A stretch of 64,000 bases of DNA, taken from the IMG/VR virus record IMGVR_UViG_3300027754_000035. One strand, written 5' to 3'. Below, one piece after another: positions 42,390 to 58,375 of this stretch. The translations under genes and the position numbers were made by a program. This stretch comes from a virus (lineage: Duplodnaviria; Caudoviricetes). Within the stretch, counting starts at the first letter, position 1; each line of letters begins with the position of its first letter. The notes under the pieces were generated by a model. That model was not told the origin of the DNA. It searched no databases and saw nothing but the letters and a program-made list of their open reading frames with translations.

Positions 42390-42391
42390 AG

Positions 42392-43567
42392 TTATTTTAT
42401 ATTTATCAACGTTTCCTTGTAATCCACCAATTTGTTGACCTTGATTTTGAAAATGTCATATTCAAGCTCACCCGGTTGACCACTGTCTTCCAACATTTGT
42501 TGCAATATGTTAAAGAACTCAAAACTTTGATTGGTAATTTTGTTACCATCAAAGGTCACTACAACATCATTATTTTTTGGTTCATCATATTGTTTGAGCT
42601 TCTTGTTAAGATCATAGCGAGTGTTTTTTTGCTCTGCTTTGATGTATCTGCTGTATTCAACATCTGTATATAATGTATCGCACCAAGGTTCAAGTAGTGC
42701 CACACGATACTCATCACAATTAATCACAACAAAACCTACGTTATACCTATTGGGTACCACAGGCTTCATCATGTCGTTGTGTTTTACAAAATGTCCCCAT
42801 TTACGAATAAAGTTTCTGGCACTCTTGACGTTTTGTTGTTGCCACTCATCACTGTCCTTACCAATGGCCGTGATGGTTGGATTGAACCTACTACCACGAC
42901 ATGTTAGATGATACACACACGCTTCCCACAATTGTACAAACTTGTAGCCCGACAAAAAGAATCGATTGAAGATATCGCTATCTTCTTTGCTGGTTGGTGC
43001 AAAAAGCAAATCGTGACCACCAATCTTTAGAAAATCTTGTTTGTAAATTGCCCATGGAGCAAACACACCCTCTGTGGTTTTATCTTTTCGGCTTACTTTG
43101 GTGGTCAACAACCATTTGTCAAATTCATCCTTTTTGAAAGTTTCGGGTTCCATACCAAAATCTTGGACAATCTTTTCTGGACCGCCTGGATGCAACGGTG
43201 GTTCTATGCGGGTCAAACAAACAACTGTTTGTGGAACAAGATGCTTTTCAATCAACAGATCAGCATTTTTGCTGATATACATGTCAGCGTGGTAAATCAT
43301 CACCACATCATTGGTGGCAACGGTCTCCACCAAAATATTGTAAAGCTCAGTCATACCTTTGCGAGCAGGACCATCATTGCGTATGGCTTTGAAATTTGGA
43401 TCTTGCTGTTGCATTTCTTGACACCATTCCCAAGTACCATCTGAACTAGCATCATCAGCAACACACACTTCGTGATTTTTATGGCTGAGATTGTTACGAA
43501 TCGCATCATAACACCATTTTAGATATTTGAGATTGTTTCTTGCGGGTATAATAAAACTAATGTTCAT
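42392..43567 (-). CDS. GT2-family glycosyltransferase
   Basis: ISFIIPARN, VADDASSDGT, YHADM, GGHD..FAP..KEDSD, VYHLTCRGSR. Confidence 0.88.
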   Translation of the reverse strand: MNISFIIPARNNLKYLKWCYDAIRNNLSHKNHEVCVADDASSDGTWEWCQEMQQQDPNFKAIRNDGPARKGMTELYNILVETVATNDVVMIYHADMYISKNADLLIEKHLVPQTVVCLTRIEPPLHPGGPEKIVQDFGMEPETFKKDEFDKWLLTTKVSRKDKTTEGVFAPWAIYKQDFLKIGGHDLLFAPTSKEDSDIFNRFFLSGYKFVQLWEACVYHLTCRGSRFNPTITAIGKDSDEWQQQNVKSARNFIRKWGHFVKHNDMMKPVVPNRYNVGFVVINCDEYRVALLEPWCDTLYTDVEYSRYIKAEQKNTRYDLNKKLKQYDEPKNNDVVVTFDGNKITNQSFEFFNILQQMLEDSGQPGELEYDIFKIKVNKLVDYKETLINIK

Positions 43568-43581
43568 AACTATAAATATAA

Positions 43582-44334
43582 CTATATCACAACTCCTAAT
43601 GATTTCAACTGATTTAATAATTCCATTATTTGATTTACTTTTGTGACAAGAAATTTAGCATTCAACCGTTGTTGTACAACATGTGTTGCAAAACAACTAA
43701 CGTCAAGTACCTGAGTTTGATTAAATGTGAAAAAGTTGTATTTTTTAATTTCATTTTTTAACAACAATTCGGTAAATTTCATATCAAATTCGAACGGATT
43801 GTAGTCTTCGGACCACACTGGACAGTTCAAAATAGAATCCACATGCACAGCATTTAATCCTCCTCTGATCCACTCGTTTTCTACACCCACCAACAAATTT
43901 TTGTTTTTGGCAAAAATTTTTCGTATTTGTGATTGAAATTCTTCGGATCGATAATGAACCAAGTCAGTGTCTATTTTACAAAATATAGCATCGATATATT
44001 CGTCTTTATGTTGTTCAAGATACTGCTTCAATAAATTGAATTTGCAAGCCATAGAGTTTTGTTGACTTTCAATGAATATTGTTTTGGGACCAAGAAGCGA
44101 CGACAAATACTGTTTGTAGCTTGTATCACCCTTTTGTCCAGACACCAGAACAAAATATGTGTATTTGTGAGTTAATTCTATAAAATTGGTATTGATGGAT
44201 GTGTAGGCATCCATAGAAACATCCAAGAATGTATAGTAACAAATTTGGTTATTCATAGTATCTTCGATTGGCTGTTGCTGCAATACAATCGACTTATGTA
44301 ATACATTCGGTAAAAAACGTTGTATGTCAATCAT
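43582..44334 (-). CDS. Putative GT-A glycosyltransferase-like protein
   Basis: FCKIDTD DxD-like motif, IRGGLN; AT-rich; inside the island. Confidence 0.45.
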   Translation of the reverse strand: MIDIQRFLPNVLHKSIVLQQQPIEDTMNNQICYYTFLDVSMDAYTSINTNFIELTHKYTYFVLVSGQKGDTSYKQYLSSLLGPKTIFIESQQNSMACKFNLLKQYLEQHKDEYIDAIFCKIDTDLVHYRSEEFQSQIRKIFAKNKNLLVGVENEWIRGGLNAVHVDSILNCPVWSEDYNPFEFDMKFTELLLKNEIKKYNFFTFNQTQVLDVSCFATHVVQQRLNAKFLVTKVNQIMELLNQLKSLGVVI

Positions 44335-45101
44335 AAGTATAGTTTATTATAAGTCTTGGTCATCCAATGGTGTACTTGATTACCATAACTAGTATCTGGT
44401 ATACCGTTGAAATGATATACCCAACCAAACTTGGTGAATGGTAAACCGTCGGTAAGACCCTCCAATAAATTCAGCCCCATCATATTGAATTCATAAGGAA
44501 GTATTTTTGTAGAAACACTGTTTGTCTGCAAAAAGAAATTCATGGGTGTTTGGTCAGTACCCAACTTGATTTGTGTTTCACACTGATAAATCAAGTCTTT
44601 ATTGTCAGAGTAAAACTGTTTGAACTTGTTGAGATGATTTTTATGAGCGGCATTTACAATTTGAAATCCACCATTGATGTAACTCCAAATATCTAGTTCG
44701 TAATCGTTGAACAAAGCTTTGCTGTAACACTCAACACTGCGCATTACCCACTCATACACAACACCGTCATGAACTCCTGTATACAGTCCATTGGTCAATT
44801 CAAAGAAATTTGGACAGTCGGGATGTACAATGGTATCCGCGTCAACAATCAACACTTGATTGTAATCAACACCACTGTTCTCTAATAAATCCAATACGTA
44901 ATAACGCTGCCAAGCCATGCTTGTGATGTTGGTATCCATCAATGGTTGATCCAATACCACAACGTCACAATTATGTTTTTTAGCAAAGTTGCGCCAACTA
45001 CGAATACTCATATCAAATATGCTGCTTATCAATGGTGTATTACGCAGCTTCTTTTCACCGTTATTCGATACAACTGCTGGTATAAAAATAATATTTTTCA
45101 T
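44331..45101 (-). CDS. GT8-like nucleotide-diphospho-sugar transferase
   Basis: VLIVDADTIV, YINGG, DQTPMN, LPYEFN, VYHFNG; start moved to 45101. Confidence 0.75.
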   Translation of the reverse strand: MKNIIFIPAVVSNNGEKKLRNTPLISSIFDMSIRSWRNFAKKHNCDVVVLDQPLMDTNITSMAWQRYYVLDLLENSGVDYNQVLIVDADTIVHPDCPNFFELTNGLYTGVHDGVVYEWVMRSVECYSKALFNDYELDIWSYINGGFQIVNAAHKNHLNKFKQFYSDNKDLIYQCETQIKLGTDQTPMNFFLQTNSVSTKILPYEFNMMGLNLLEGLTDGLPFTKFGWVYHFNGIPDTSYGNQVHHWMTKTYNKLYL

Positions 45102-45859
45102 TGATATTTTATTTTGATATCTGCCCAAATTTGGTTAATTAAATGATTGCGTTGTTCAATCGGAAATCCAGTAAAGTGCCAAAGATATGTGTATTTGAAA
45201 AAGAAAGGAACTGTGTCGTTGAGTTTGTCATTGTACCACAACAATCCTTTTTTGACCATACCAACTGTGTTCCATGAATATGGAAGATATTTGCACTTTA
45301 TACCCTCTTGCTTCAGATGAAAATTAAGCAAAGTTTGTTCTTTACCTGTGTTTGGTACGTTCCAATTATCTAGCACGGATTTGTTGTCGAGGTAAAACTT
45401 TTTGAGCTTTTCAAAGAATGGTTTGTGGTCTTTTGTGAAAAATAGCACACCACCATTGATATGCTCGCTTAATCCAACATGCATGTCTTTGAATTGTGGA
45501 AATGCTTTGCGATATGCGGTTTGACTGTTGTCCATCCAACTGATGCTGGTTTGGTCCAATACACCAACAAATTCATCGGTGTATAGATCAAAAATATTTG
45601 GAGCATCCCATTTGATCATGGTATCAAAATCGACAATACCAATTTTTTCATAGCTATCACCAACATAGTCAAACACAAACTCTTTGTGCCAGACACTGTA
45701 TTTGACATTGGGCATTTTATTTCGCACAACAAAAAAGTCGATATTGTTTTTGTTGCAGTAATATTGCCATGCGTCAATTGTATGTTCAAAATAGGTTTTG
45801 TGAGAATGTTTTGATAACTCATCCTCAATCGCAACCATCATAATGCAATTTTTATTCAT
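45098..45859 (-). CDS. GT8-like nucleotide-diphospho-sugar transferase (tandem paralog)
   Basis: IVDFDTMI, HINGGV, EQTLLN, LPYSWN, LWHFTG. Confidence 0.75.
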   Translation of the reverse strand: MNKNCIMMVAIEDELSKHSHKTYFEHTIDAWQYYCNKNNIDFFVVRNKMPNVKYSVWHKEFVFDYVGDSYEKIGIVDFDTMIKWDAPNIFDLYTDEFVGVLDQTSISWMDNSQTAYRKAFPQFKDMHVGLSEHINGGVLFFTKDHKPFFEKLKKFYLDNKSVLDNWNVPNTGKEQTLLNFHLKQEGIKCKYLPYSWNTVGMVKKGLLWYNDKLNDTVPFFFKYTYLWHFTGFPIEQRNHLINQIWADIKIKYQ

Positions 45860-46422
45860 GAAATCTCTTTGCAGATTAGTCCCTCATAATCATGCAACTT
45901 GCGAGTAAACACTTCACCTGTAGCATGTCCGATTTTTTTAATAATCTCAATTTTGTTGGACAAAATCAACGCATCAACTGCATCTTTAACATCTGGTATG
46001 CTGCCGTAATCGTCGTAGATAAAGTACTTCTTACCAGACGAATTGAAGTTCAATGATCGCAGAGTATCATTGATTACAGCGTCATAGCTATGATTGGCAT
46101 CAACCAAGAATACATCACCCGTATCAATTGGAATTTTTGTGGTATAAATATCTTGGGTATAAAATTTCACATTGGGTCTGTTGGCGTTAAATTCCACGGC
46201 TTGATCAGCACAACTAAGGTTGAAACCAGATACATCTTTGAATAGATAGCTCAATATCTTGGTGGTGTAGCCCAAATTACTACCCCACTCTACACAAATC
46301 TTATCTTTGAATTCCGGCTTGTCAAAAAATTCAAACACATCACGTTTGAACCTATGGCTGGTTGTATCTTTGTGTTGAAACTTATCGGGAATAGTTAACA
46401 ATAGTTCATCAATGATAGCCAT
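45856..46422 (-). CDS. Class I SAM-dependent methyltransferase
   Basis: CVEWGSNLGYTT, FLVDANHSY, FIYDDYG. Confidence 0.75.
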   Translation of the reverse strand: MAIIDELLLTIPDKFQHKDTTSHRFKRDVFEFFDKPEFKDKICVEWGSNLGYTTKILSYLFKDVSGFNLSCADQAVEFNANRPNVKFYTQDIYTTKIPIDTGDVFLVDANHSYDAVINDTLRSLNFNSSGKKYFIYDDYGSIPDVKDAVDALILSNKIEIIKKIGHATGEVFTRKLHDYEGLICKEIS

Positions 46423-46425
46423 ATA

Positions 46426-47232
46426 TTAGTTGTTTCTTTTGTTCATATGTTCGTTGCTCTCCAACACTGTTTTGAGAATGCTCAGATCCACACCAACTTT
46501 GTCGCCATACGCAACCATAGCTTTTGTATCTTTTGGCAAACACTTGCCACCAAATCCACGTTCATCGGCAAACACAGCGGTATGACTACGGTTTGTGCGC
46601 GGGTCCAACAACCACAGATCACGGACTTCGGACCAATGCGTTCCACTCTTTTCACACAAATCGTACAATTCATTAACAAATGCGACTTTCATTGCAAAAT
46701 ATGTGTTTTCAACATACTTGGTAATTTCCGCACTGATACTGTCTGTGACACGATAAGTTTTGCTTGGCCCAGTAATGGGCATATACAAATCAACTAGCTT
46801 ATGACCAACTTCTTTATCATCAGTACCAAAAATAAAGAATGGAGTTTGCTTTACATCTGTAGTAAATCCTTGTGGTGTCCAATATTTACTCTCACCCGCA
46901 AATTCAGGACTAAATACAATCTTCTTGTTGTATTTTTCAGCGAGTCGTTTGGTGGTACCAATTTCGATTGTGGATTTGATCAAAATGATTGGGGTCTGCA
47001 ACCACGCAACACTATCTTCAACAAAGTCTGTGTTGCAGCTATTGTCATCATTTGACGGCGTAGGCACACACACAACACCCACATCGCATTCATTAATGAT
47101 GTCTTTATCGTTGAATCCGGCAATGGCTGGGTCATAGATCCGCACTTCATAATGATCCTTAAAAAAGGCGTGAAATGCCTTGCCCACATAACCAAATCCC
47201 ACGATACCAATTTTAATTTTTGATTTGCTCAT
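46426..47232 (-). CDS. UDP-glucose/GDP-mannose dehydrogenase family protein, lacking C-terminal domain
   Basis: GIVGFGYVG, VCVPTP, IKSTIEIG, FSPEF, AEITKYVENTYFAMKVAFVNE, GFGGKCLPKD. Confidence 0.88.
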   Translation of the reverse strand: MSKSKIKIGIVGFGYVGKAFHAFFKDHYEVRIYDPAIAGFNDKDIINECDVGVVCVPTPSNDDNSCNTDFVEDSVAWLQTPIILIKSTIEIGTTKRLAEKYNKKIVFSPEFAGESKYWTPQGFTTDVKQTPFFIFGTDDKEVGHKLVDLYMPITGPSKTYRVTDSISAEITKYVENTYFAMKVAFVNELYDLCEKSGTHWSEVRDLWLLDPRTNRSHTAVFADERGFGGKCLPKDTKAMVAYGDKVGVDLSILKTVLESNEHMNKRNN

Positions 47233-48157
47233 AAATTGTATTCCAACGTACTTTCCAAATTGTCTCTGAATAATATAGTTGATATAAATCTTTAGATTTC
47301 AAAGAAACGTAATTATAAAATTCAACATCATTCTTTAGTTTGATCGCCAATGCATTTGCACCAACAATGTCACCAACGCCCACCGATAGATCTGGAAACA
47401 AAGTTTGCTGTGTATCCAATCCTTTGTAACCGATGCATGGTATGCCCCAATAAGCACAATTGAGTGCAAATGTGCCGGCAGCGTGTGTACGCATCAAATG
47501 TACTCCTACGTTGAAATTGGCTAGTGTTCGCATCCAATTAGTCCACGTCATATATGGCAGATGCAGAAGATTTGGAAATTGTTCTTCGTTGTTTATTTTG
47601 CGTCCCATACTTGGAACGTAAATTGGCTTACCGAAATTTTGTGCCACAAAATAGCTATCCACGCCACCATACCAACTACAGAAATTGCCGCCAATTATTG
47701 GCATACCATTATTTTCTCTAATAACTCCAGCTAGAGTATCTGTAATCATTAGTGATTGTAGATTGAATGTGGGTTTTTTGAATATACCTTTGAAGTACGC
47801 AATATCACTAATATTATGAACCAGCAGAAAATCCATCTCACTTAGAAAATTGATATAATTGACTTGTTGAGCATAATCGTAGTCTTGATAATACCAAGCT
47901 GGTCCTTCTTGCATCACCGCCACTTTTTTGCTGCGACGTTTTACACTATCCAACAATGCGCCTGTATCAATCAATTCTAATTTCTTTGGTAGAATTACAA
48001 CGACGAGATCGTATGTTGTATTTGAAAAAAACCAGTCTTTGTAATTTTCATGGTGTGCGTTCAATGCAATTTGCCAAGCAAACTCAGTTCTACAGTTATC
48101 AAAGGTTCTGGAGGTCTTGCCTGTAAATCCATTTTGGCTAATAAAACAAATGTTCAT
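47213..48157 (-). CDS. Putative GT-B glycosyltransferase
   Basis: AAGTFALNCAYWGIPCIG resembles a GT-B donor-binding motif; island context. Confidence 0.55.
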   Translation of the reverse strand: MNICFISQNGFTGKTSRTFDNCRTEFAWQIALNAHHENYKDWFFSNTTYDLVVVILPKKLELIDTGALLDSVKRRSKKVAVMQEGPAWYYQDYDYAQQVNYINFLSEMDFLLVHNISDIAYFKGIFKKPTFNLQSLMITDTLAGVIRENNGMPIIGGNFCSWYGGVDSYFVAQNFGKPIYVPSMGRKINNEEQFPNLLHLPYMTWTNWMRTLANFNVGVHLMRTHAAGTFALNCAYWGIPCIGYKGLDTQQTLFPDLSVGVGDIVGANALAIKLKNDVEFYNYVSLKSKDLYQLYYSETIWKVRWNTIYEQIKN

Positions 48158-49239
48158 AACAGATATTTTTTGTCTGAAATGGATCGCACCGTGTCTGTAA
48201 TAAACATACTTAGTGCATAATCCAACCGATTTCTTATATTTTTAATTTTTATTTTATGATTATTAAAATTTTGTATTCCATCCACCAACTTATCTTCAAA
48301 ATCTGACAAATCATCTTTATAAAAGATACACGTATCATCATGAAATAAGTCTGGATTTGTAACTATGTGTCTAATATCACCTTTACAAATTACATTTCCA
48401 TAATTTATTGCGTCTAATTCTCTGGAATTTATTTCCCCAAATCCATGTGGTGAAATCATGATTTTTGATTCTAAACAAACTTGCGCATAAGAGTTCGCAT
48501 CTAATTTTCCAGATTGTTCGGATGTTAAAATATTGAAATTATATTTTTCTAAGTTTTTTAACGTTTTGAAGATATTCAATCTATGATCGTTATAATATTT
48601 ACTTATTTCTTTTTTATAATTAGAATGTGTATTCGAAATACCGACCAAACAAATCGCATCATACTTGTAATTTACAATATCAATATTAATATTGCTTGGA
48701 TTATAAGTCATGCCACTGTTGTAAATCCAATTTGTATTTGATAAAGCTATTTTTGAGTTGAGTAATTCTACGTCGTTATTGGACAATTTATATTCTAAGT
48801 CTGGCACAAGCGGCCACCAATATCGACCAAACGACGTTGGTTTTGTATATAAACTTAAATCTCTATAATAATGCGACTTAAAGTATTTCAAACCAGGACA
48901 TTGTTTGAATACATCAAAAATACCATGCAACATGACGGAATCGTTAGTATCAAAGAAATAGAATGGCTTATCCAATGATTTTAGAAATTCAACACCACTT
49001 GCCACTGATTGTTCATATTCCAATTGCGTATTAACCACAGATCCCCAACCTACAAAGTAACAATCCGCACGTCTTTTATCATCTACAAAGTCAATTTCAT
49101 GGTTTTTGAACTTGTTCTTTAACTCTATATATGGAAGAAATGTTCTCCTATTTCTTCCTGTTATTTTAGAGACATTATTTTGACACCTTTTATTTGATAC
49201 AAATTCTATGTCTTGAGTTTCTAAGATTTTAATTTTCAT
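48154..49239 (-). CDS. Putative GT-B glycosyltransferase (AT-rich)
   Basis: ESKIMISPHGFGEINSRELDAINYG, CIFYKDDLSD. Confidence 0.55.
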   Translation of the reverse strand: MKIKILETQDIEFVSNKRCQNNVSKITGRNRRTFLPYIELKNKFKNHEIDFVDDKRRADCYFVGWGSVVNTQLEYEQSVASGVEFLKSLDKPFYFFDTNDSVMLHGIFDVFKQCPGLKYFKSHYYRDLSLYTKPTSFGRYWWPLVPDLEYKLSNNDVELLNSKIALSNTNWIYNSGMTYNPSNINIDIVNYKYDAICLVGISNTHSNYKKEISKYYNDHRLNIFKTLKNLEKYNFNILTSEQSGKLDANSYAQVCLESKIMISPHGFGEINSRELDAINYGNVICKGDIRHIVTNPDLFHDDTCIFYKDDLSDFEDKLVDGIQNFNNHKIKIKNIRNRLDYALSMFITDTVRSISDKKYLL

Positions 49240-50231: not shown

Positions 50232-50968
50232 AGTTTATATTGTTGGATAATATCATGCAGATGTTGAGGTATCAATACTTTATTTTCACATAGCCCCAAA
50301 AATTTGTTGCGATCTTTTTCATGCAACAGTTTTACATGAACTGCCTTGATCGGTTTTATAGCACATTCATATCTGTCTTCAAACGACGTCATACCCAAAT
50401 TATACTGTGGAGTCAGTGTGGTGCAGTCAGCATTAAAAGTTGGTAGTGTGGTTTGTAGATGCAAAACGATTTGTTCATCAGAATACCATTTGGGCCCACG
50501 ACCATCGTCCAGCTTAGAAATTCCGTCTCTATTTGTTTCGTAAAATTCGCATATAAAATCCAATAGAATCTGTGACCGTTTGTTGAAAAAGAACGATCCA
50601 CCGTTCCAATTTGTATTTTTTTTGCTATACGGACAGCCTGCAAATCTACCAACAAATTCTGGATATTCGAAATGATCTATTTGCCAAACATCGTAGTCAT
50701 GTAACCAAATATCGTCGTGGTATTGTGCGAGTAGATCTTTACACACATAAAATTTGTTGGCCCATACGTTGAAATCACACAACCTTTTTGGAAATGTGTT
50801 TTTAATACCACGATACTCAAAATCAAAATTAGTAACAACAATCAGATCCTCTGGGTTACAACCGTAGTGCAAGCTATTGTCAATCTGGGCATATAAATAC
50901 CGCAGTATGTTATCGTGAGCATGATATGGAGTATCATCCAACTTTAGATATAAAACGACATTCTTCAT
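50228..50968 (-). CDS. Putative nucleotide-diphospho-sugar transferase
   Basis: IWLHDYDVWQ, NWNGGSFF, SDEQ, YNLG, VH. Confidence 0.6.
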   Translation of the reverse strand: MKNVVLYLKLDDTPYHAHDNILRYLYAQIDNSLHYGCNPEDLIVVTNFDFEYRGIKNTFPKRLCDFNVWANKFYVCKDLLAQYHDDIWLHDYDVWQIDHFEYPEFVGRFAGCPYSKKNTNWNGGSFFFNKRSQILLDFICEFYETNRDGISKLDDGRGPKWYSDEQIVLHLQTTLPTFNADCTTLTPQYNLGMTSFEDRYECAIKPIKAVHVKLLHEKDRNKFLGLCENKVLIPQHLHDIIQQYKL

Positions 50969-51603
50969 CGCTTTTCTACCAATATCTGATAATCTTTATG
51001 GATTACATTGATTTTTTTGTTGAATGCTTGTAAGAATGCTTCAATACCAAGACCACATTCTCCCCAACCATAGTCATCAAACAGAATCAAACCGTTTTGT
51101 TTGACACAATCAAAGCTGCTGATAGCATCTCGCAACACCTGATCCGGGTCGTGTGACGCATCGATATAAATAAAATCAAATTGTTGTTGATTCGTCCTAA
51201 AGAAATCGTTGGTGCTAGTTTGTACAAATGTGCATTGGTTTCTATCAATATATGGTTGTAAATTTTGCAAACAATCAATCACAATTTCTTGATTGTCCAA
51301 CATTCTTTTTTGTTTTTCTCCGTGTGTCAGACGAATGTTTGTGAGGTCGATTGTGGTCAGATGGCAATTTGTAGCCGTCAATACATTCTCCATCATCCAA
51401 ACTGATGCTCTACCTTGCGCAGTTCCCAATTCTAGAAATTTCAAATTTTCAATATCATAAAATCTGGTAAGAAACATTTCCCAATTTTTGATATGAATAG
51501 TGAAATCATCCCAAGGACAAAAGAAATGGTCTGGGTAAGTATATAGATTGGCGGTTCTATTAAACGGATCGCCATATTTAGCACGTAATTCGGTAGTATT
51601 CAT
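50965..51603 (-). CDS. Class I SAM-dependent methyltransferase (Methyltransf_24-like)
   Basis: FLELGTAQG, FDFIYIDASH, GLILFDDYGW. Confidence 0.85.
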   Translation of the reverse strand: MNTTELRAKYGDPFNRTANLYTYPDHFFCPWDDFTIHIKNWEMFLTRFYDIENLKFLELGTAQGRASVWMMENVLTATNCHLTTIDLTNIRLTHGEKQKRMLDNQEIVIDCLQNLQPYIDRNQCTFVQTSTNDFFRTNQQQFDFIYIDASHDPDQVLRDAISSFDCVKQNGLILFDDYGWGECGLGIEAFLQAFNKKINVIHKDYQILVEKR

Positions 51604-52247
51604 ACAGCATAACCCATGTTTTCTTGTGTCGTAAAATTCTTCATATAGTTGTTGTTGTTTTCACGTTGCTTCTCAATAGTTTTATTGTGTAGGATTGCGT
51701 AGTCTTGTTGCGGAGGAACAAACACATACGATTTGTTGCCTTCAACTTTTTCATGTAGTCTACGTTGATAGCGAATGTGTGGTTGGTTGCAAAACAATCT
51801 TGCTTGATAATCGGGGAAGTTAACCAAGCCACCATGGCTGATTCTCCAACCCCAATCATCAATATCTTTTTGAGTATATCCAGAAAAATGATTGCATCTG
51901 GGCAACCAAATTACTTCGCTAGAATCATTGGATTCAAGAATAAGATCAATATTGGTCACCAAAGCATCCGTGGGAAGCTCATCAGCATCCAATTGGAAAA
52001 TCCACTTGCCTGTACACTGTTCAATACCATAGTTTTTGTGAGCACCATAATTGTTGTTTAATTTGTGCTTGTATAGCTTTATCTTGGCTTTGAATAATTC
52101 CAAGACAGCCAATGTTTTGGGACAATCTGAGTAATCATCCACAACAACAATTTCATGATTTGGTTTGAGTGTATTGCATAATTTTGTCAATAACAACCCC
52201 AAACTTTCACCTTCATTGTGACATGTGACCAGATACGATAGATACAT
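51600..52247 (-). CDS. GT2-family glycosyltransferase
   Basis: LVTCHNE, VVVDDYSD, KNYGIEQCTGKWIFQLDADE, FPDYQARLF, LHEKV. Confidence 0.88.
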   Translation of the reverse strand: MYLSYLVTCHNEGESLGLLLTKLCNTLKPNHEIVVVDDYSDCPKTLAVLELFKAKIKLYKHKLNNNYGAHKNYGIEQCTGKWIFQLDADELPTDALVTNIDLILESNDSSEVIWLPRCNHFSGYTQKDIDDWGWRISHGGLVNFPDYQARLFCNQPHIRYQRRLHEKVEGNKSYVFVPPQQDYAILHNKTIEKQRENNNNYMKNFTTQENMGYAV

Positions 52248-52249
52248 AA

Positions 52250-53581
52250 TTATCCAATTTTGAGTTTTGGCAATACAATTTGTGATGGTTGTGCATCACC
52301 AGCCACCTTTAGCTTCGGAAGTACAAACTGATTTTCGACAGCAAATTGAGGTACATACTTGTCAAGAATTTCCCACAACCGCTTGTCCATAGACTGCATA
52401 CTGAATTTTTCAGCATTCTCAGCACGCAACAGTTCGGCATTATTGCACAGCTTTTTATCGCCAATATTGTTGAATATCTGCTTGAACTTATCACCTGCGA
52501 GACTATACGAAACCTTGAACCATTGACTTTCCTTCAACAACCACTGATTAGCCGCTTTTTTATCGATTTGCTCAAGTCTACCGGGCAACAGATTTGCATA
52601 CTTTGGATTCAAGAAATCCAGATGCCCACTCCAATTTGGAGCCAGCAAAGGTTTGCCACTCAACGTTTGCAACAACAGAGGATGACCATAACCTTCGCCG
52701 TGTGTGAACGACACATGACATTTAACCTTTGGGTGATTGAATAAAGCATTCATTTCCAATTCGCTCAATTCTCCGTGCAATACATACACTTGGGGTGGAT
52801 TGCCTGTGAATGTTGAACGAATCTTATTGATCAGATTTACCACTTCAAAACGATCCATTGTGGAAAATCCAACACCGGATGTCTTGAGAATCAAACATGG
52901 CTTTACTTGGGCATTGTTATTAAATGCCTCGCAGAATGTTTTTACCAGATTACCAATATCTTTACGGTCATGATATAATCCTGTATGTGTCAATTGTCCC
53001 ACAAATAGGAACGCAAAATTCTCGGGAATCTTTTCAAGTACTTCGTCAACAGTACCAACACGTTCCTCTGTTTTTTTGAAGATATTGGTATCGGCACCCC
53101 AAAAGCAAACTTCGATGGGCTTTTTTATTACAACATCTTCTTTGCGACCATCAGGCAATTGCTTGGTCATCTTGGTGTTCAAAAACACGTTCTTGGCATG
53201 ATTGCTCAAAGCTATAGTTAAATCAACTCTATTGATTCCTTCCAAGAACTCGCCACTGGCAACTGTGGTTTCGATACCTGCGGTCATGCCGATATTATAC
53301 TTACCAACTTTTTGAAATTCGTTGGGAATACTCAATTGAACAAATAGATCGGGTTGTTTTTGCAATTGACCTTGCAACAACTTACTTGCCAATATTTTGT
53401 CCTCTGGATCAGTGATATCGTCCATGTACCGTTTACTTTGACAATTACCCCATTTTTGTGGAGCAACCTTCACGTCAAATTTATCATATCGAATGATGCT
53501 CTTGGCTACTGCTGTAGCCCAATCACCATATCCGCTGCGGTTGAATACTGGCCCTGAAATTAAACAAAATGGTTTGCTCAT
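52250..53581 (-). CDS. GT4-like (GT-B) glycosyltransferase
   Basis: SGYGDW, FLFVGQ, RKDIGNLVKTF, SFTHGEGYGHPLLLQTLSGKP, WSGHLDFL. Confidence 0.85.
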   Translation of the reverse strand: MSKPFCLISGPVFNRSGYGDWATAVAKSIIRYDKFDVKVAPQKWGNCQSKRYMDDITDPEDKILASKLLQGQLQKQPDLFVQLSIPNEFQKVGKYNIGMTAGIETTVASGEFLEGINRVDLTIALSNHAKNVFLNTKMTKQLPDGRKEDVVIKKPIEVCFWGADTNIFKKTEERVGTVDEVLEKIPENFAFLFVGQLTHTGLYHDRKDIGNLVKTFCEAFNNNAQVKPCLILKTSGVGFSTMDRFEVVNLINKIRSTFTGNPPQVYVLHGELSELEMNALFNHPKVKCHVSFTHGEGYGHPLLLQTLSGKPLLAPNWSGHLDFLNPKYANLLPGRLEQIDKKAANQWLLKESQWFKVSYSLAGDKFKQIFNNIGDKKLCNNAELLRAENAEKFSMQSMDKRLWEILDKYVPQFAVENQFVLPKLKVAGDAQPSQIVLPKLKIG

Positions 53582-53584
53582 ATT

Positions 53585-54157
53585 TTATTGAAATTGTTGT
53601 TCACGTTCTTTGATTGCATCCAGATACCGTTTGCTCGGAGTTTGTGGTGCATTTCCCAAATTTTTGTAAAGGTCTTCCATACTTTTCATTTGCTTGGTAG
53701 CCTGGTCCACAGTTTCACGTTTAGTGTCGCTGCTACCAAATCCACCACTACCACGTTGAGTTGCGGTTAGATCATCAACCTCAACAAATCCACCGACGAT
53801 AGATCCACATGATACAAATATGATTTGTGCAATCGCAGTTTCTTTACCATCCTTGATAATTGGAAGTTGAATTGGTTTGTCACCAAGATTGATGAGTGCC
53901 ACCAAGATTTCTCCACGATAGTCACTATCAATAACTCCGGCAAGAACGTCAATGCCATGTTTTACAGCCAGACCACTACGAGGAGCAACCCGACCATAGA
54001 ATCCTTCGGGGATAGCCAATGAAATATCCGTTTTGAATGCCTTACGTTCACCCGGTTTTAGTTCATACGATTCTGTAGCATACAGATCATACCCGGCCGC
54101 TCCTGCGCTACCTTTACTTGGTACAACTGCTTTGTTTGATAGTAGTTTGATATTCAT
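53585..54157 (-). CDS. dut: dUTPase (trimeric)
   Basis: AAGYDL, GRVAPRSGLA, GVIDSDYRGEI, IAQII, RGSGGFGSSD. Confidence 0.95.
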   Translation of the reverse strand: MNIKLLSNKAVVPSKGSAGAAGYDLYATESYELKPGERKAFKTDISLAIPEGFYGRVAPRSGLAVKHGIDVLAGVIDSDYRGEILVALINLGDKPIQLPIIKDGKETAIAQIIFVSCGSIVGGFVEVDDLTATQRGSGGFGSSDTKRETVDQATKQMKSMEDLYKNLGNAPQTPSKRYLDAIKEREQQFQ

Positions 54158-55122
54158 GACAATTCTTGTTTGATTTTATCAATGTCGATTTTGTGCAAAT
54201 CGAAACCCAATTGATTCTGAGGCAGCTTCTTCAAATTGAAGTCCTCATTGTAGGTAAAGATATCAAACTTTCGTGATGGTGTAAAGTTATTAATAGTGAA
54301 CTCCATTGCTTTAATGAATTGATCACTCATATTTTTTGAATTGATACCACCATCCGCTTGTGCCCAAGCACGGCCCTCAGCACCACACTTTTCACGACGC
54401 TCAGATCCTGCAAGATACCAGTACATGATCGCATCTGAAATCTCCTTGTAATCCACAATGTCATCCATGATATATGGAGTGGGAGGACTACCCTGCAATG
54501 TATTGGTTGTATTCCATAAAGGCCGTACCCAACAACCATGGTTCTTGTGACGCCCCGTGACATTGGTACCAAACTGTAGGTTAAATTCAATTGGCTTACC
54601 ACTGTCGTCGGTGATACCCATTTGATCTTGCAACCCACCAGTCACAGTGGCAATCACGGGAGTGCCACACATGATGGCTTCAGCAATGCTCAAACCAAAT
54701 CCCTCGTTGCTGCTGACGTTGGCAACAACATCACATATGTTGTAGAATGCCACCATTTCTTCTGGGGTTCTGCGGCTATCTTCAATTATTACTTTGTAGT
54801 CTGGACAAATGGCATCCACCACAGCAACTAGATCTGTACCCTCGACGCTACTCTTATCGGTATGCAACCACAACGCACATTTACTGGCTTGCTCTGGGGT
54901 CAAATGATCGCAGAACGTTTTGAATGCCAGAATCAAGTTTGCTGGATGCTTACGATGTGAATTGCGACTATTGAAGCCCACCACAAATTCATAGTTGGTT
55001 TCACCAAAATATTCTTTGCGGAGTTTCTTGACCACACCTTCATTTTTATCCAGTGGTTTGAAGTATTCGGCATTGATACCGTGTGGCACATAATGTAACA
55101 GATGTTTTCCTTTTACTGGCAT
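54154..55122 (-). CDS. GT4-like glycosyltransferase, C-terminal half
   Basis: YVPHGIN, NSRNSHRK, YNICDV..NVSSNEGFGLSIAEAIMCGTPVIA..TGGLQDQ. Confidence 0.85.
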   Translation of the reverse strand: MPVKGKHLLHYVPHGINAEYFKPLDKNEGVVKKLRKEYFGETNYEFVVGFNSRNSHRKHPANLILAFKTFCDHLTPEQASKCALWLHTDKSSVEGTDLVAVVDAICPDYKVIIEDSRRTPEEMVAFYNICDVVANVSSNEGFGLSIAEAIMCGTPVIATVTGGLQDQMGITDDSGKPIEFNLQFGTNVTGRHKNHGCWVRPLWNTTNTLQGSPPTPYIMDDIVDYKEISDAIMYWYLAGSERREKCGAEGRAWAQADGGINSKNMSDQFIKAMEFTINNFTPSRKFDIFTYNEDFNLKKLPQNQLGFDLHKIDIDKIKQELS

Positions 55123-55658
55123 ACTAGTTTTCCTTCCTTGTCAAAATCACCATAGATTGAAGTGCAGTTTTCTGGTCCAAGAACCCACTTATTGATGTTA
55201 TCGGTTTGTTTACTGATTGCAAATAGAGCATCACAACTCTTGTAATATGGTTTGTTCCACATCGGATATGGTAAATCATCCCAAATGTCAAGATACGTCA
55301 GTGGAATCTTGCTGCGCAGTTGGTTCTCAATGGCATACAACCAAATCCAAAAACGAGGGTCGGTGAAGTGCAATATTGCATCTGGCTTTTCAAGTGCCAT
55401 AATTTGGAACAATGTTTCCTCATTACCATATTCATGTGTAGGATATAATCGTAAATAACAGTCTTTACGATTTGTTAGTTGATTACACGGTTCGTCCATG
55501 TTTACTACTTGACCTTGATCGGGATGCTTAATTGCGCCTGCCATTTGAACCCAATCAAAGTGATGGACAGTGCCCATCACCAATTCTCGACTCATGGTGG
55601 CAACACCACTATGCATTCTTAGGTCATCCGATAGAAGTAGAATCTTTTTCTTGCTCAT
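55113..55658 (-). CDS. GT4-like glycosyltransferase, N-terminal half
   Basis: ILLLSDD...SGVATMSREL, EKPDAILHFTD, YLDIWD, AISKQT. Confidence 0.8.
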   Translation of the reverse strand: MSKKKILLLSDDLRMHSGVATMSRELVMGTVHHFDWVQMAGAIKHPDQGQVVNMDEPCNQLTNRKDCYLRLYPTHEYGNEETLFQIMALEKPDAILHFTDPRFWIWLYAIENQLRSKIPLTYLDIWDDLPYPMWNKPYYKSCDALFAISKQTDNINKWVLGPENCTSIYGDFDKEGKLVCQ

Positions 55659-55879
55659 TTTTTATCTTTATTAGGAGTGGAAAGTTGAAACGGCTGATCA
55701 TAGCTAAGTTTTTGACATAGACTATCACTAATTTCTTTGCGAAAATTAGAATCCTCGATATATTTCTCAAGGCACTTATTGACAAAATCTTGAAATGAGA
55801 TTTTGCCTCTGACATTTATTTCTTTGAACTGAGTGTACAGTTCAATGTCTAGTTTTACTGTGGTAACAAATGGATCCAT
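55655..55879 (-). CDS. Small ribbon-helix-helix-like protein
   Basis: TTVKLD strand then two helices (LYTQFK, SFQDFVNKCLEKY); probable start 55879 (alternative 55900). Confidence 0.5.
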   Translation of the reverse strand: MDPFVTTVKLDIELYTQFKEINVRGKISFQDFVNKCLEKYIEDSNFRKEISDSLCQKLSYDQPFQLSTPNKDKK

Positions 55880-55952
55880 AACATATTCACATACATACAT
55901 ATGCAGATATGTTTGGCTCGATTATTTATATTTAAGGTATATTATCGACGTG

Positions 55953-56723
55953 TTACAAAAGTTTTTTGAATTTTAACTTGACCACATCGTCGGTACCATT
56001 TTCATAATTATATACTGCCACACTTCCTTTTTGAGCATCCCGCATTAAACCGACTCTATTGTTTTTTATAAAGCCAAGCTTTGTATTATGATCCAATAAA
56101 TTTTGCAACAACAATGATTCGTTACTGAATCTATTGCATCGTTGATTAGTAGTAATATTCGATGTTGTATTTTTAAGATTGTTATATATGGAACAATACG
56201 TGTCCATGTTTTTTCCAGACCCAATTGCGAACGCATCGTTGATTCCCCAATATCGATTTAGATCCATATTGAATTTGCGATCATACACCGTGTACAATGT
56301 GTCGATGTCTAGTAGCAACACATCGATTGGATTAACAACGTATGCGTCCAATCTGAGTCGCACAACAAAATCATAGTGAACATTGTTTTTGATTTCATAG
56401 TTTTTGCGAAGTTGGTTTGCAGCAGCAACAGAATAATACTGACTACACGTATTAAACCACCACTTGGAAGAACACTCCCTTGCATCCCGCATAGTTGTGG
56501 CACTCAATATTTGTGACAAGCTGTCACCTTCGGACGAAAAATCACGCTGTGGTTCAAATACAAATTCTTTTGGTTGAAAATGTTCAATTAGATTGTGTTG
56601 AACAGTATCCGACCATTGATGCATAAAAACATCAATGTTTGCATGATTGACAATTGCAGACAATATATTTGCATTGATCCACTCGGATCTATATTGACCC
56701 GACACACATACGGCGATATTCAT
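55953..56723 (-). CDS. Glycan-related hypothetical protein (GT-A-like)
   Basis: IAVCVSGQYR, YDFVVRLRLD, NDAFAIGS, ESLL. Confidence 0.5.
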   Translation of the reverse strand: MNIAVCVSGQYRSEWINANILSAIVNHANIDVFMHQWSDTVQHNLIEHFQPKEFVFEPQRDFSSEGDSLSQILSATTMRDARECSSKWWFNTCSQYYSVAAANQLRKNYEIKNNVHYDFVVRLRLDAYVVNPIDVLLLDIDTLYTVYDRKFNMDLNRYWGINDAFAIGSGKNMDTYCSIYNNLKNTTSNITTNQRCNRFSNESLLLQNLLDHNTKLGFIKNNRVGLMRDAQKGSVAVYNYENGTDDVVKLKFKKLL

Positions 56724-56730
56724 ACTAATT

Positions 56731-57468
56731 TTATTTGATGTTATATACCTTTTTGAAGAACCCTACATATTCTTTTCTAAAATCTTTCCACTTTGCCACA
56801 GACAGTTCTTTTGCTTTTTTAGAAAGTTCAATTAGCTCGGAAGAATCTTTCATTTTTAGCCTAAATGGAGTCAGATGATGTATCGCACCAACATACTGTG
56901 GTTCAATAAGATAATTTTTGAACCCCGCGCGCATCGCTTTGTATGCAAAGTCTCCACTTTCACAATCACTGATAAACTTTGTAGAAAATAGTCCTATTTC
57001 TTCAAATAGCTCCGATTTGAAAAACATGATTGCGTCGGCAAACAAAACGTGATGTATACCAGGGCACACTGTGTATGCAAACTCAGAGACATCGGAATGT
57101 TGTTGAATTCCTAACACACCAGCATGAGGCAACGTGTTTGTCAAATTTCTGAACGCATCTATCCATTCAGGATTACAAATTTCAACGTCTGAGTGTATAA
57201 AACAAAAAAACTCAGTGTCGCATTGCTTTGCTACCATGTTGATTGGCTCGGAAATGCTATATTTTGTGTTGTAACAAATTTTTTGAATGTTTGGATCAGT
57301 AACGTTCCAATTTAGAAACTCTGTATTATCTTTATGTCCTGCAACAAATAACTTGTTGTTCTGGTTTTTTTTGACTGAATCCCATAACTTGTTTATGCAC
57401 TGAACCTCCAGGTCCTTCCGAACTGAGAATAGCACTGGACATACAAATGTCGTCGCATTTTTTGTCAT
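56731..57468 (-). CDS. GT2-family glycosyltransferase
   Basis: FIHSDVE, FADAIMFFKSELFEEIG, ESGDFAYKA, AIHH; start moved to 57468, 7 nt after the upstream stop. Confidence 0.75.
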   Translation of the reverse strand: MTKNATTFVCPVLFSVRKDLEVQCINKLWDSVKKNQNNKLFVAGHKDNTEFLNWNVTDPNIQKICYNTKYSISEPINMVAKQCDTEFFCFIHSDVEICNPEWIDAFRNLTNTLPHAGVLGIQQHSDVSEFAYTVCPGIHHVLFADAIMFFKSELFEEIGLFSTKFISDCESGDFAYKAMRAGFKNYLIEPQYVGAIHHLTPFRLKMKDSSELIELSKKAKELSVAKWKDFRKEYVGFFKKVYNIK

Positions 57469-58369: not shown

Positions 58370-58375
58370 ATACCC

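What the first reader, a model, noticed from the sequence alone, without database searches (positions are those of the whole stretch)
42392..57468. ~15-kb phage glycosylation island
A contiguous minus-strand run, mostly with overlapping or closely spaced genes, encodes about 12 GT-like ORFs of both folds (GT2, GT8-like, GT4-like, unassigned), two SAM methyltransferases and a nucleotide-sugar dehydrogenase; a TylF O-methyltransferase lies 5 kb away. That is enough to build a branched, methylated, uronic-acid-containing glycan. I see no flippase, polymerase, ABC exporter or lipid-carrier initiating transferase, and the enzymes look soluble. This favours a cytoplasmic acceptor (virion protein or DNA) over O-antigen or capsule conversion. 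The last GT2 has its own late motif (43571).
Basis: partly seen in the sequence, partly recalled or inferred. Interest (0 to 1): 0.78.

Follow-up and report, generated by a model that had tools for sequence, protein, structure and literature searches.

The report
Phage sugar-chain factory, swappable genes
An uncultured freshwater giant phage carries a real 16-kb block of about a dozen soluble sugar-adding enzymes, with four conserved enzymes framing a strain-variable set; it probably sugar-coats a phage protein rather than DNA, but no sugar has yet been shown on anything.

Summary
Window 42392-57468 (minus strand) is one tightly packed run of glycan-synthesis genes. Six glycosyltransferases are solid and about six more are tentative.

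New here:
- Four GTs form a conserved frame: a split GT-B, its paralogue, a GT2 and a terminal GT2. The frame is shared with Flavobacterium phage immuto, Microcystis phage Mel-JY01 and hundreds of IMG/VR contigs.
- The genes between differ between relatives: 142 families in 79 loci.
- Strains about 95-97% identical lack single GT or MT genes cleanly.
- No relative carries a multi-pass membrane protein such as a flippase, polymerase or exporter.

DNA is an unlikely acceptor. No hydroxymethylase, TET or C5-MT gene lies in the window. Mel-JY01 has no ThyA homologue. Published LC-MS of immuto DNA shows no glycosyl-nucleoside.

My odds on the acceptor: phage (virion) protein about 0.5, host envelope glycan about 0.25, DNA about 0.07. 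A mucin-like late protein at 37123-38706 is a candidate acceptor, but its orthologue in the closest relative lacks the stalk.

The scan already reached a similar reading on adjacent DNA of this genome (e1-5410979). I class this as a new variant of a known kind.

The parts
57476..58384 (-). PD-(D/E)XK nuclease. It is the conserved upstream neighbour of the island, not a glycan gene.
   Evidence: PF12705, 78.9 bits. Adjacent to the GT core in 66 loci, immuto and Mel-JY01.
56731..57468 (-). Tentative GT-A-like gene (245 aa from the ATG at 57468). It is strain-variable.
   Evidence: PF13712, 19.7 bits, below cut-off. One distant homologue carries PF13712. Cleanly absent in contigs of runs X6 and X14.
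55953..56723 (-). DUF7796 protein. Fold and role unknown.
   Evidence: PF25072, 29.4 bits; PHROG 13607, 8e-23. DUF7796 recurs in other cassette variants.
55655..55900 (-). Conserved 81-aa ORF of unknown function at the head of the core.
   Evidence: Found in 54 loci at about 70% identity. No Pfam match.
55113..55658 (-). N-terminal half of a split GT-B glycosyltransferase.
   Evidence: Found in 77 loci at 72% identity. In immuto it is fused in frame with the next gene as one annotated 480-aa GT, gp181. Six IMG/VR loci also carry a fused form.
54154..55122 (-). C-terminal half of the split GT-B (GT4-like), with an extra C-terminal domain.
   Evidence: PF00534, 50.4 bits. Profile to chlorovirus NY-2A B736L (3oy2), E 4e-14.
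53585..54157 (-). dUTPase embedded in the core. Probably a passenger gene.
   Evidence: PF00692, 117.8 bits. Two divergent forms occupy this slot in relatives. It lies elsewhere in Mel-JY01, and tblastn found no match in immuto.
52250..53581 (-). Core GT-B glycosyltransferase (443 aa), paralogue of the split pair.
   Evidence: PHROG 2170, 1e-11. hhalign 96.6% to the 322-aa family. 266 IMG/VR relatives. At least 8000 90%-identity clusters in metagenomes.
51600..52247 (-). Core GT2 glycosyltransferase (215 aa).
   Evidence: PF00535, 60.7 bits. Found in 77 loci, immuto and Mel-JY01.
50965..51603 (-). SAM methyltransferase (Methyltransf_24, TylF-like class).
   Evidence: PF13578, 53.7 bits.
50228..50968 (-). 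Tentative GT-A (GT8 / Nucleotid_trans-like) with a conserved HDFDD motif.
   Evidence: Invariant H90 D91 D93 in alignment A6. Atlas lead to PF03407 / PF01501. No Pfam or PDB sequence match.
49236..50231 (-). GT-A fold glycosyltransferase with no named family.
   Evidence: AF2 pLDDT 91.5. Foldseek E 6e-8 to COLGALT1, LH3 and RmlT. VIA Z 15-16.
48154..49239 (-). Tentative GT-B-like gene (Glyco_trans_1_2 / RXYLT1 / exostosin-like). It is strain-variable.
   Evidence: Atlas lead, score 0.98, 225 shared features. Exostosin-like C-terminal motif seen by eye in alignment A5. Cleanly absent in a contig of run X11: the contig skips 48152-49235.
47213..48157 (-). GT-B (GT4-like) glycosyltransferase.
   Evidence: AF2 pLDDT 89.5. 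Foldseek E 3e-10 to BshA, then Gtf3/GtfC, TarM and T4 AGT. Swiss-Prot models of O-antigen and capsule GTs also match.
46426..47232 (-). UDP-glucose/GDP-mannose dehydrogenase-like protein lacking the UDP-binding C-domain.
   Evidence: PF00984, 84.2 bits, and PF03721, 42.7 bits. It keeps GxGxxG and GFGGKCLPKD but ends at residue 268. This length is conserved in 32 loci.
45856..46422 (-). Probable class I SAM methyltransferase. It is strain-variable.
   Evidence: PF13578, 21.4 bits, below cut-off. Family profile hits PDB methyltransferases at 1.4e-5. Cleanly absent in a contig of run X14.
45098..45859 (-). GT8-like GT-A, tandem paralogue of the next gene.
   Evidence: About 30% identical to 44331-45128; both are in one cluster. 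Conserved DxD and His in alignment A11.
44331..45128 (-). GT8-like GT-A (tentative).
   Evidence: PF01501, 22 bits against a cut-off of 24.3, covering 71-244 of 253. Only sub-threshold PDB hits, all to glycogenin.
43582..44334 (-). Possible glycosyltransferase, weakly supported.
   Evidence: PHROG 4447, 1.7e-4. No Pfam match. Found in only 2 related loci.
42392..43567 (-). Terminal GT2 (391 aa). It closes the island and is part of the conserved frame.
   Evidence: PF00535, 58 bits. 86% identical in G003, 47% in immuto gp169, 24% in the Mel-JY01 COG1216 GT. The TATTTATA motif lies 3 nt upstream but is interrupted by a 6-nt deletion in other strains.
42018..42389 (-). Small DUF1360-like membrane protein downstream of the island. 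It is the only hydrophobic product in the run.
   Evidence: PF07098, 21.1 bits. Two hydrophobic segments.
37123..38706 (+). Mucin-like protein: an N-terminal domain, about 40 TPSLTA repeats, an AASP array and a Cys-rich tip. Candidate acceptor.
   Evidence: Translation. TATTTAT motif upstream. The orthologue in G003 and in L004/L005 is the N-domain only, 133-138 aa.
62139..62852 (+). TylF-type O-methyltransferase directly after PolB. Possible decorator.
   Evidence: PF05711, 45.8 bits. No homologue in G003.

Best explanation
The island is a self-contained cytoplasmic assembly line for an oligosaccharide.

**Conserved frame.** Four GTs form the frame: a split GT-B, its paralogous GT-B, a 215-aa GT2 and a terminal 391-aa GT2. 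I infer that they lay down a common core on an acceptor that the phage lineage itself supplies.

**Variable genes.** The genes between them are further GT-A and GT-B enzymes, two SAM methyltransferases and a dehydrogenase-like enzyme. They extend, branch and O-methylate that core. These genes are gained and lost one at a time between strains, so the glycan differs from strain to strain.

**Acceptor.** The most likely acceptor is one or more virion proteins. In this genome the candidate is the Thr/Ser/Pro-rich stalk protein at 37123-38706. This would give the particle a variable sugar coat, as in chloroviruses, mimiviruses and mycobacteriophages.

**Shown versus inferred.**
- Shown: enzyme folds and families, the frame-plus-cassette architecture, strain-level gene indels, absence of membrane machinery, and absence of known DNA-hydroxylation routes.
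- Inferred: the acceptor, the order of steps and the sugars used.
For: **GT folds and families.**

**Split GT-B.** It is a single fused gene in immuto and in six IMG/VR loci.

**Frame across host phyla.** The frame is shared by phages of Bacteroidota (immuto) and Cyanobacteria (Mel-JY01) at about 24-57% identity. This fits an acceptor carried by the phage rather than a host-specific glycan.

**Cassette content.**
- 142 gene families occur in the cassette across 79 loci.
- Sampled families include GT2, GT11, GT61, GT6, Methyltransf_24, FkbM, CmcI and C-methyltransferases, epimerases and dehydratases, Glf and DegT.
- No multi-pass membrane protein and no phosphoglycosyl transferase was seen.

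**Strain-level indels.** Clean single-gene absences occur at 48152-49235, 45861-46425 and about 56719/56730-57465/57476 in strains about 95-97% identical from other freshwater studies.

**Closest solved relative.** For the core GT-B it is chlorovirus NY-2A B736L.

**Actinophage homologue.** A distant homologue in Arthrobacter phage KellEzio sits between the tail terminator and the tail genes.

**Candidate acceptor.** A mucin-like protein with the structural-gene upstream motif lies 3.7 kb from the island.

**DNA routes absent.**
Against: - No glycan has been observed on any protein.
- The island lies in the replication and nucleotide-metabolism module, not among structural genes.
- The nearest large relative, G003, has the island, but its orthologue of the mucin-like gene is a 133-aa N-domain without stalk or tip. 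That protein therefore cannot be the universal acceptor.
- Structural neighbours of the two folded GTs are generic. They include O-antigen, capsule and teichoic-acid enzymes as well as protein GTs.
- Soluble GTs could equally act on host undecaprenyl-linked intermediates.
Confidence: 0.5

Rival explanations
1. Host envelope remodelling. The soluble GTs act on host undecaprenyl-phosphate-linked intermediates. Host flippase, polymerase, ligase or ABC exporter then displays the altered LPS, capsule or S-layer glycan. The purpose might be to block superinfection or grazing.
For: - The families present (GT2, GT4, GT8, GT11, GT25-like) are typical of O-antigen and LPS loci.
- Swiss-Prot structural neighbours of the 47213-48157 model include WclY, cps-region and LPS-core GTs.
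- A variable cassette between conserved flanks mimics O-antigen loci.
- GT-rich islands in T4-like cyanophages have been read this way in the literature (PMC12801897).
Against: - No initiating phosphoglycosyl transferase, flippase, polymerase, ligase or exporter was seen in the window or in the ORFs of 79 related loci.
- The same frame occurs in phages of two host phyla with very different envelopes.
- No GtrA/GtrB-type membrane parts are present; the GT2s have no hydrophobic helices.
Confidence: 0.25
2. DNA hypermodification. The GTs build an oligosaccharide on a hydroxylated base of phage DNA to evade restriction.
For: - The island sits between the dNMP kinase and the PD-(D/E)XK nuclease plus PolB, with a dUTPase inside it.
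- Phage GTs are known to add mono- to tri-saccharides to 5hmC or 5hoC (bioRxiv 10.1101/2023.12.21.572611; PMC13326640).
- T4 alpha-glucosyltransferase is among the structural neighbours of 47213-48157, at rank 24.
Against: - Known routes need a TS-family hydroxymethylase/hydroxylase, or a C5-MT plus a TET enzyme. None is in the window.
- No Tet_JBP was found in five relatives.
- A C5-MT occurs only in Mel-JY01.
- Complete Mel-JY01 has no ThyA homologue.
- ThyA in relatives scores as a true thymidylate synthase, and it is replaced by ThyX in one relative.
- Published HPLC-UV-MS of immuto DNA shows normal dA, dC and dT plus formyl-preQ1 only.
- Twelve GTs far exceed any known DNA glycan.
- The dUTPase is not linked to the frame in immuto or Mel-JY01.
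Confidence: 0.07
3. Another cytoplasmic acceptor. The enzymes might glycosylate a host protein, such as a defence or translation factor, or make a soluble methylated oligosaccharide or glycoside.
For: - All enzymes are soluble.
- GT4 neighbours include small-molecule GTs such as BshA, MshA and SenB.
- The island lies among early or middle-type genes.
Against: - A dozen GTs and strain-level cassette turnover fit an exposed, selected surface structure better than a metabolite.
- No precedent is known to me for a phage-made cytoplasmic oligosaccharide of this size (own knowledge).
Confidence: 0.1

Closest known systems
Giant-virus autonomous glycosylation (chlorovirus PBCV-1 and NY-2A capsid glycans, including GT B736L; Mimivirus fibril glycans)
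   Same: - Virus-encoded soluble GTs plus sugar methyltransferases, with no membrane machinery.
- The core GT-B family's best solved relative is NY-2A B736L (E 4e-14).
- Conserved core chemistry with variable decoration is established for chlorovirus glycans (own knowledge).
   Different: - This is a tailed bacteriophage, not a eukaryotic virus.
- No glycan or acceptor has been shown.
- Identity to B736L is limited to the C-terminal Rossmann domain.
Mycobacteriophage virion O-glycosylation (Che8, Corndog, Myrna; Freeman et al. 2023, as cited in PMC12619734)
   Same: - Phage GTs, and in some cases methyltransferases, modify capsid and tail-tube proteins.
- A distant homologue of the core GT-B lies inside the structural module of Arthrobacter phage KellEzio.
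   Different: - Those systems have 2-4 genes next to structural genes in small actinophages.
- Here about 12 GTs form a 16-kb island in the replication module of a phage of about 300 kb, probably with a Gram-negative host.
- I could not read the primary paper.
GT-rich 'cell-wall/LPS' islands of T4-like cyanophages (P-SSM2, S-SCSM1, S-SCSM2R with 13 GTs; PMC12801897)
   Same: Large aquatic myophage with many GT and sugar-nucleotide genes of unknown target.
   Different: - Different phage lineage: PolB is 27-30% identical.
- Those islands include KDO and epimerase genes and are read as host-surface modifiers.
- No frame-plus-cassette architecture has been reported there, to my knowledge.
'Moraphages' (freshwater jumbo phages of 200-307 kb, predicted Bacteroidota hosts, four core GT orthogroups; PMC12619734)
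   Same: - Habitat, genome size (syntenic relative G003 is 303.6 kb) and PolB.
- A link to Rhodothermus phage RM378.
- Four conserved GTs.

   Different: - Membership is not tested, because no moraphage sequence was available to me.
- The paper only lists the GT orthogroups and names DNA, serotype and virion options without deciding.
T4-type DNA glucosylation and 5hmC/5hoC glycan hypermodification
   Same: Phage-encoded GT-B enzymes located near replication genes.
   Different: - The prerequisite base-hydroxylating enzymes were not found.
- Published DNA analysis of immuto, a carrier of the frame, shows no glycosyl bases.

Membership tests
Virus-encoded autonomous protein glycosylation (chlorovirus / mimivirus / mycobacteriophage type) | Several virus-encoded soluble glycosyltransferases without lipid-carrier or export machinery | tested here: met
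   Six solid and about six tentative GTs. No transmembrane helices. No membrane machinery in 79 relatives.
Virus-encoded autonomous protein glycosylation (chlorovirus / mimivirus / mycobacteriophage type) | Glycan covalently attached to a virion protein | not testable with these tools
   This needs virion glycoproteomics. The only evidence here is a candidate mucin-like late protein, whose stalk is absent in the G003 orthologue.
Virus-encoded autonomous protein glycosylation (chlorovirus / mimivirus / mycobacteriophage type) | Virus-encoded nucleotide-sugar synthesis or sugar-decorating enzymes | tested here: met
   Methyltransferases at 50965-51603 and 45856-46422, plus a TylF MT at 62139-62852. 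The dehydrogenase-like gene is truncated. Relatives carry Gmd, RmlD, Glf, DegT and CapD-like genes.
Phage DNA glycosyl hypermodification (T4 AGT/BGT; MT+TET+GT clusters; 5hoC arabinosylation) | An enzyme that makes a hydroxylated pyrimidine: a TS-family hydroxymethylase/hydroxylase, or a C5-MT plus a TET/5mYOX enzyme | tested here: not met
   None appears in the window's ORFs scanned against Pfam. No Tet_JBP in five relatives. Mel-JY01 has no ThyA homologue. ThyA in relatives scores as a true TS. The rest of this phage's own genome was not available.
Phage DNA glycosyl hypermodification (T4 AGT/BGT; MT+TET+GT clusters; 5hoC arabinosylation) | Glycosylated nucleosides in virion DNA | not testable with these tools
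   Literature proxy only: immuto, which carries the same GT frame, shows dA, dC and dT plus fdPreQ1 by HPLC-UV-MS (10.1101/2023.04.13.536721).
O-antigen / capsule loci and Gtr-type seroconversion | Initiating phosphoglycosyl transferase plus Wzx/Wzy or an ABC exporter, or GtrA/GtrB/Gtr-type membrane proteins | tested here: not met
   Hydropathy census: no ORF with more than one hydrophobic segment other than the DUF1360-like protein. The Pfam census and single-TM clusters show no Bac_transf, Wzx or Wzy. Only half of the cassette families were scanned with Pfam.
GT2 (PF00535) | Match above Pfam's gathering score | tested here: met
   42392-43567 scores 58 bits and 51600-52247 scores 60.7 bits, against a cut-off of 23.3.
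GT4 / GT-B (PF00534) | Match above the gathering score, or a two-Rossmann GT-B fold | tested here: met
   54154-55122 scores 50.4 bits against a cut-off of 26.4. The 47213-48157 model has a GT-B fold, TM 0.69-0.73 to BshA. The 443-aa protein is homologous to the 322-aa family.
GT8 (PF01501) | Match above the gathering score | tested here: not met
   44331-45128 scores 22 bits against a cut-off of 24.3. The family profile gives only E about 0.3 to glycogenin. A conserved DxD and His keep 'GT8-like' as a lead.
UDP-glucose/GDP-mannose dehydrogenase | Three-domain architecture: NAD-binding, central and UDP-binding C-terminal domains | tested here: not met
   The N and central domains and the catalytic Cys motif are present. 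The protein ends at residue 268, which corresponds to about residue 317 of the 444-residue chain 3vtf.

The most novel reading that the evidence does not exclude
An abundant clade of large aquatic phages infecting Bacteroidota and Cyanobacteria carries a phage 'serotype' locus. A four-GT frame writes a common core glycan onto virion proteins. A recombining cassette of single-gene modules makes the outer glycan differ between co-circulating strains. This would be a bacteriophage counterpart of bacterial O-antigen diversity and of giant-virus glycan coats.
Probability: 0.35. Interest if true: 0.8.

Novelty: new variant of a known kind. Interest (0 to 1): 0.6.

Why it matters
**Current state of knowledge.** To my knowledge, virion glycosylation by phage-encoded enzymes has been shown experimentally mainly in mycobacteriophages. 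Large autonomous glycan systems are known from giant eukaryotic viruses.

**If the best explanation is right.**
- A very abundant freshwater and marine phage family coats its particles with strain-specific methylated glycans. The core GT alone has at least 8000 90%-identity clusters in metagenomes.
- That would bear on adsorption, on particle stickiness and survival in water, on grazing, and on recognition of particles by hosts.

**Why it is testable.** Two cultured phages, Flavobacterium phage immuto and Microcystis phage Mel-JY01, carry the same frame, so the question can be tested directly.

**Independent of the acceptor.** Conserved GTs flanking a cassette with single-gene indels is a concrete example of modular glycan-gene evolution in a virus.

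Tried and rejected
- **Nucleotide search.** Megablast of the island against 50,697 phage records gave no match.
- **Own genome.** No whole genome is held for the window, so the rest of this phage could not be searched.
- **PDB profile searches.** The 181-aa, 331-aa, 361-aa and 246-aa families gave only chance-level hits.
- **hhalign comparisons.** Unknown families against the GT2 or GT-B families found nothing: A4 and A6 versus A8, A5 versus A1, A1 versus A3.
- **Literature.** No paper mentions Mel-JY01. The primary mycobacteriophage glycosylation paper (PMC10527164) is not held.
- **Expression.** No RNA holder was listed for the island, so expression and timing are untested.
- **Mucin-like proteins in relatives.** A composition filter over complete Mel-JY01, immuto and G003 gave Gly-Ser/Thr collagen-like and SASxA tail-fibre-type repeats, but no TPS-type stalk. 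I therefore dropped the idea that a mucin-like stalk is the universal acceptor.
- **dUTPase as a functional part.** Rejected. The dUTPase lies elsewhere in Mel-JY01, tblastn found no match in immuto, and two unrelated forms fill the slot in relatives.
- **Neighbour 58427-59173 as a TET-like dioxygenase.** It has a weak cupin hit. The Tet_JBP search of G003, which has its 65% orthologue, found nothing.
- **Complex prediction for the split GT-B.** Not run, because the fused orthologue in immuto already answers the question.

Full report
**What the window is.** The 64-kb window comes from a large tailed phage.
- Positions 1-22,000 hold T4-like tail and baseplate genes: a head-tail adaptor, a gp19-like tube, a T4 baseplate protein and a gp15-like protein.
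- The rest is a replication and nucleotide-metabolism module: gp32-like, UvsX/RecA, 5'-3' exonuclease, DnaB-type helicase, class I RNR, UvdE, dNMP kinase and PolB.
- The nearest cultured relative by PolB is Microcystis phage Mel-JY01 at 39% identity. T4-like cyanophages follow at 27-30%.
- A 303.6-kb IMG/VR contig (G003, reached through L069) is syntenic with nearly the whole window at 60-90% protein identity.
- Near-identical DNA occurs in freshwater metagenomes from many studies.
- Size, habitat and the count of conserved GTs match the recently named 'moraphages' (PMC12619734). I could not test membership.

**The observation.**
- Minus-strand ORFs run from 58384 to 42018, mostly with 4-nt overlaps.
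- Pfam, PHROG, PDB-profile, AlphaFold and Foldseek results give six solid GTs:
  - two GT2 enzymes;
  - a GT-B split into 181-aa and 322-aa products;
  - a paralogous 443-aa GT-B;
  - a further GT-B at 47213-48157;
  - a GT-A at 49236-50231.

- Six more are tentative: a GT8-like tandem pair, 43582-44334, 48154-49239, 50228-50968 and 56731-57468.
- One methyltransferase is solid. A second is supported by its family profile.
- The dehydrogenase keeps its NAD motif and catalytic cysteine but stops after the central domain. This 268-aa form is conserved in 32 related loci.
- A dUTPase and a conserved 81-aa ORF also sit inside the run.
- None of the enzymes has a hydrophobic helix.

**Architecture across relatives.** The 443-aa GT has 266 relatives in IMG/VR and at least 8000 90%-identity clusters in metagenomes.
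- In 79 fetched loci the order is nearly invariant: PD-(D/E)XK nuclease, 81-aa ORF, split GT-B, dUTPase, 443-aa GT-B, GT2.
- Downstream, gene content changes from locus to locus. I count 142 protein families, 54 of them singletons.
- Where the far end was reached, it closes with the 391-aa GT2. This holds for the window, G003, L002, L004, L005, immuto gp169 and the Mel-JY01 COG1216 GT.
- Immuto infects a Flavobacterium and Mel-JY01 infects a Microcystis. Both have this frame with quite different fillings. Immuto's includes WecE-type aminotransferases, an acetyltransferase and an epimerase.
- In immuto the two halves of the split GT-B form one annotated 480-aa gene. Six IMG/VR loci are also fused. 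The split is therefore a natural two-subunit form, not an assembly error.
- A Pfam census of 71 cassette families found GT2, GT11, GT61, GT6, Methyltransf_24, FkbM, CmcI and C-methyltransferases, Gmd/RmlD-type enzymes, UDP-galactopyranose mutase, DegT aminotransferase, a CapD-like dehydratase and a dehydrogenase.
- No ORF in any locus has more than one hydrophobic segment, except the small DUF1360-like protein.

**Strain-level turnover.** I laid contigs from four other metagenomes on 41000-60900. They show strains roughly 95-97% identical in which whole genes are precisely missing:
- 48152-49235, the GT47/RXYLT1-like gene, in X11;
- 45861-46425, the second methyltransferase, in X14;
- about 56719/56730-57465/57476, the tentative GT-A-like gene (PF13712-like), in X6 and X14.

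The coupled start/stop junctions make each gene a removable module. This is the behaviour expected of a locus whose product is under diversifying selection.

**Which acceptor.** DNA is the least likely.
- All described phage routes to glycosylated DNA begin with a thymidylate-synthase homologue that makes 5hm- or 5ho-pyrimidine nucleotides, or with a C5-methyltransferase plus a TET-type dioxygenase.
- Pfam scans of nearly all the window's ORFs of 80 aa or more found none of these; the mucin-like gene was scanned against PHROGs only.
- Five relatives have no Tet_JBP. Only Mel-JY01 has a C5-MT.
- The complete Mel-JY01 genome has no ThyA-family gene at all.
- Relatives carry either a ThyA that scores 263 bits against true thymidylate synthases, or ThyX.
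- Published HPLC-UV-MS of immuto DNA shows normal dA, dC and dT, with formyl-preQ1 replacing dG and no sugar adduct (10.1101/2023.04.13.536721).
- The dUTPase inside the island lies elsewhere in Mel-JY01, and tblastn found no match for it in immuto.

Between a phage protein and a host envelope glycan the evidence is circumstantial. For a phage protein:
- The frame is conserved across phages whose hosts belong to different phyla.
- Initiation, flipping, polymerisation and export genes were not found in any of 79 variants.
- The best solved relative of the core GT-B is chlorovirus GT B736L.
- A distant homologue is embedded in the tail module of an Arthrobacter phage.
- This genome has a 527-aa protein with about 40 TPSLTA repeats, an AASP array and a Cys-rich tip. 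It is preceded by the TATTTAT motif that marks the structural genes.

Against a phage protein:
- The G003, L004 and L005 orthologues of that protein are N-domain-only.
- The island is not in the structural module.
- The folded GTs resemble O-antigen and capsule enzymes as much as protein GTs.

My odds are: virion or phage protein about 0.5, host envelope about 0.25, other cytoplasmic target about 0.1, DNA about 0.07.

**Earlier scan notes.** These are unchecked leads. They report more mucin-like fibres and a second 15-kb GT operon just beyond the window's end. A follow-up on that region (e1-5410979) reached a similar 'sugar-coats its own fibres' reading. I could not access that DNA, so I do not count it as independent support.

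**The late motif.**
- TATAAATA/TATTTATA occurs 18 times against 3.9 expected.
- In the orientation TATTTAT(A/T) it lies 0-25 nt upstream of many structural genes.
- It also lies upstream of 6187, 37123 and 58427, and 3 nt before the terminal GT2.
- All four other strains carry a 6-nt deletion at 43571 that interrupts the octamer. A dedicated late promoter for that gene is therefore not a conserved feature.

**Verdict.**
- This is a real, conserved and evolutionarily active glycan-assembly locus.
- GT-rich islands in aquatic phages and the four core GTs of this probable lineage have been noted before without a function.
- New here are the frame-plus-cassette anatomy, the split and fused GT-B forms, the single-gene strain polymorphisms, and the case against DNA as acceptor.
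- I class it as a new variant of a known kind, virus-encoded autonomous glycosylation, with the acceptor still to be shown.

Noticed in passing
window 35916-37094 (+): Solitary DruA-like gene (PF14236, 71.5 bits) in a lytic-type phage, with no other Druantia gene nearby. It is absent from G003 but present in 10 related loci.
   Followed up: partly
window 18891-20177 (+): 428-aa protein with no Pfam or PHROG match. Its homologues in immuto (26%) and Mel-JY01 (29%) sit just upstream of the gp32/UvsX/helicase genes. That is the place described for the divergent 'divPolA1' polymerase of immuto-like phages (bioRxiv 10.1101/2024.04.26.591309).
   Followed up: partly
window 46426-47232 (-): The UDP-glucose-dehydrogenase-like protein is conserved at 268 aa in 32 loci. 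It keeps the catalytic Cys motif but has no UDP-binding C-terminal domain. It is unclear how, or whether, it binds a nucleotide sugar.
   Followed up: partly
window 59486-59527 (PolB gene): In one lake metagenome (run X5, depth about 230) a near-identical strain has 1159 extra letters replacing 40 nt inside the PolB gene. This could be a mobile intron, an intein or a homing-endonuclease insertion.
   Followed up: no
window 53585-54157 (-) and the same slot in L006, L008, L014 and others: The dUTPase slot in the GT core holds two very different dUTPases in relatives. One is a 190-aa form about 72-85% identical to the window's. The other is a form of about 229 aa at only about 30% identity. This looks like replacement in place.
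   Followed up: no
window 27353-30720 (+): The class I ribonucleotide reductase pair (NrdA/NrdB) has no counterpart in the otherwise syntenic 303-kb relative G003.
   Followed up: no
window-wide; for example 542-549, 3848-3855, 8014-8021, 12539-12546, 20187-20194: The motif TATTTAT(A/T) in coding direction lies only 0-25 nt upstream of start codons of structural genes. The octamer occurs 18 times against 3.9 expected. Recognisable Shine-Dalgarno sequences appear to be rare. This may be a lineage-specific late promoter with very short leaders.
   Followed up: partly
window 6187-7350 (+): Fusion of a 5'(3')-deoxyribonucleotidase-like N-domain (PHROG 2643) with a nucleotidyltransferase-like C-domain (PHROG 36119; weak Pfam NTase hits). 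The TATTTAT motif lies upstream.
   Followed up: no
L087 (Mel-JY01 2-3049 and 9143-9983): Mel-JY01 encodes long Gly-Ser/Thr collagen-like repeat proteins (GTS/GSS triplets over more than 500 residues). These are possible alternative glycan acceptors in that phage.
   Followed up: no
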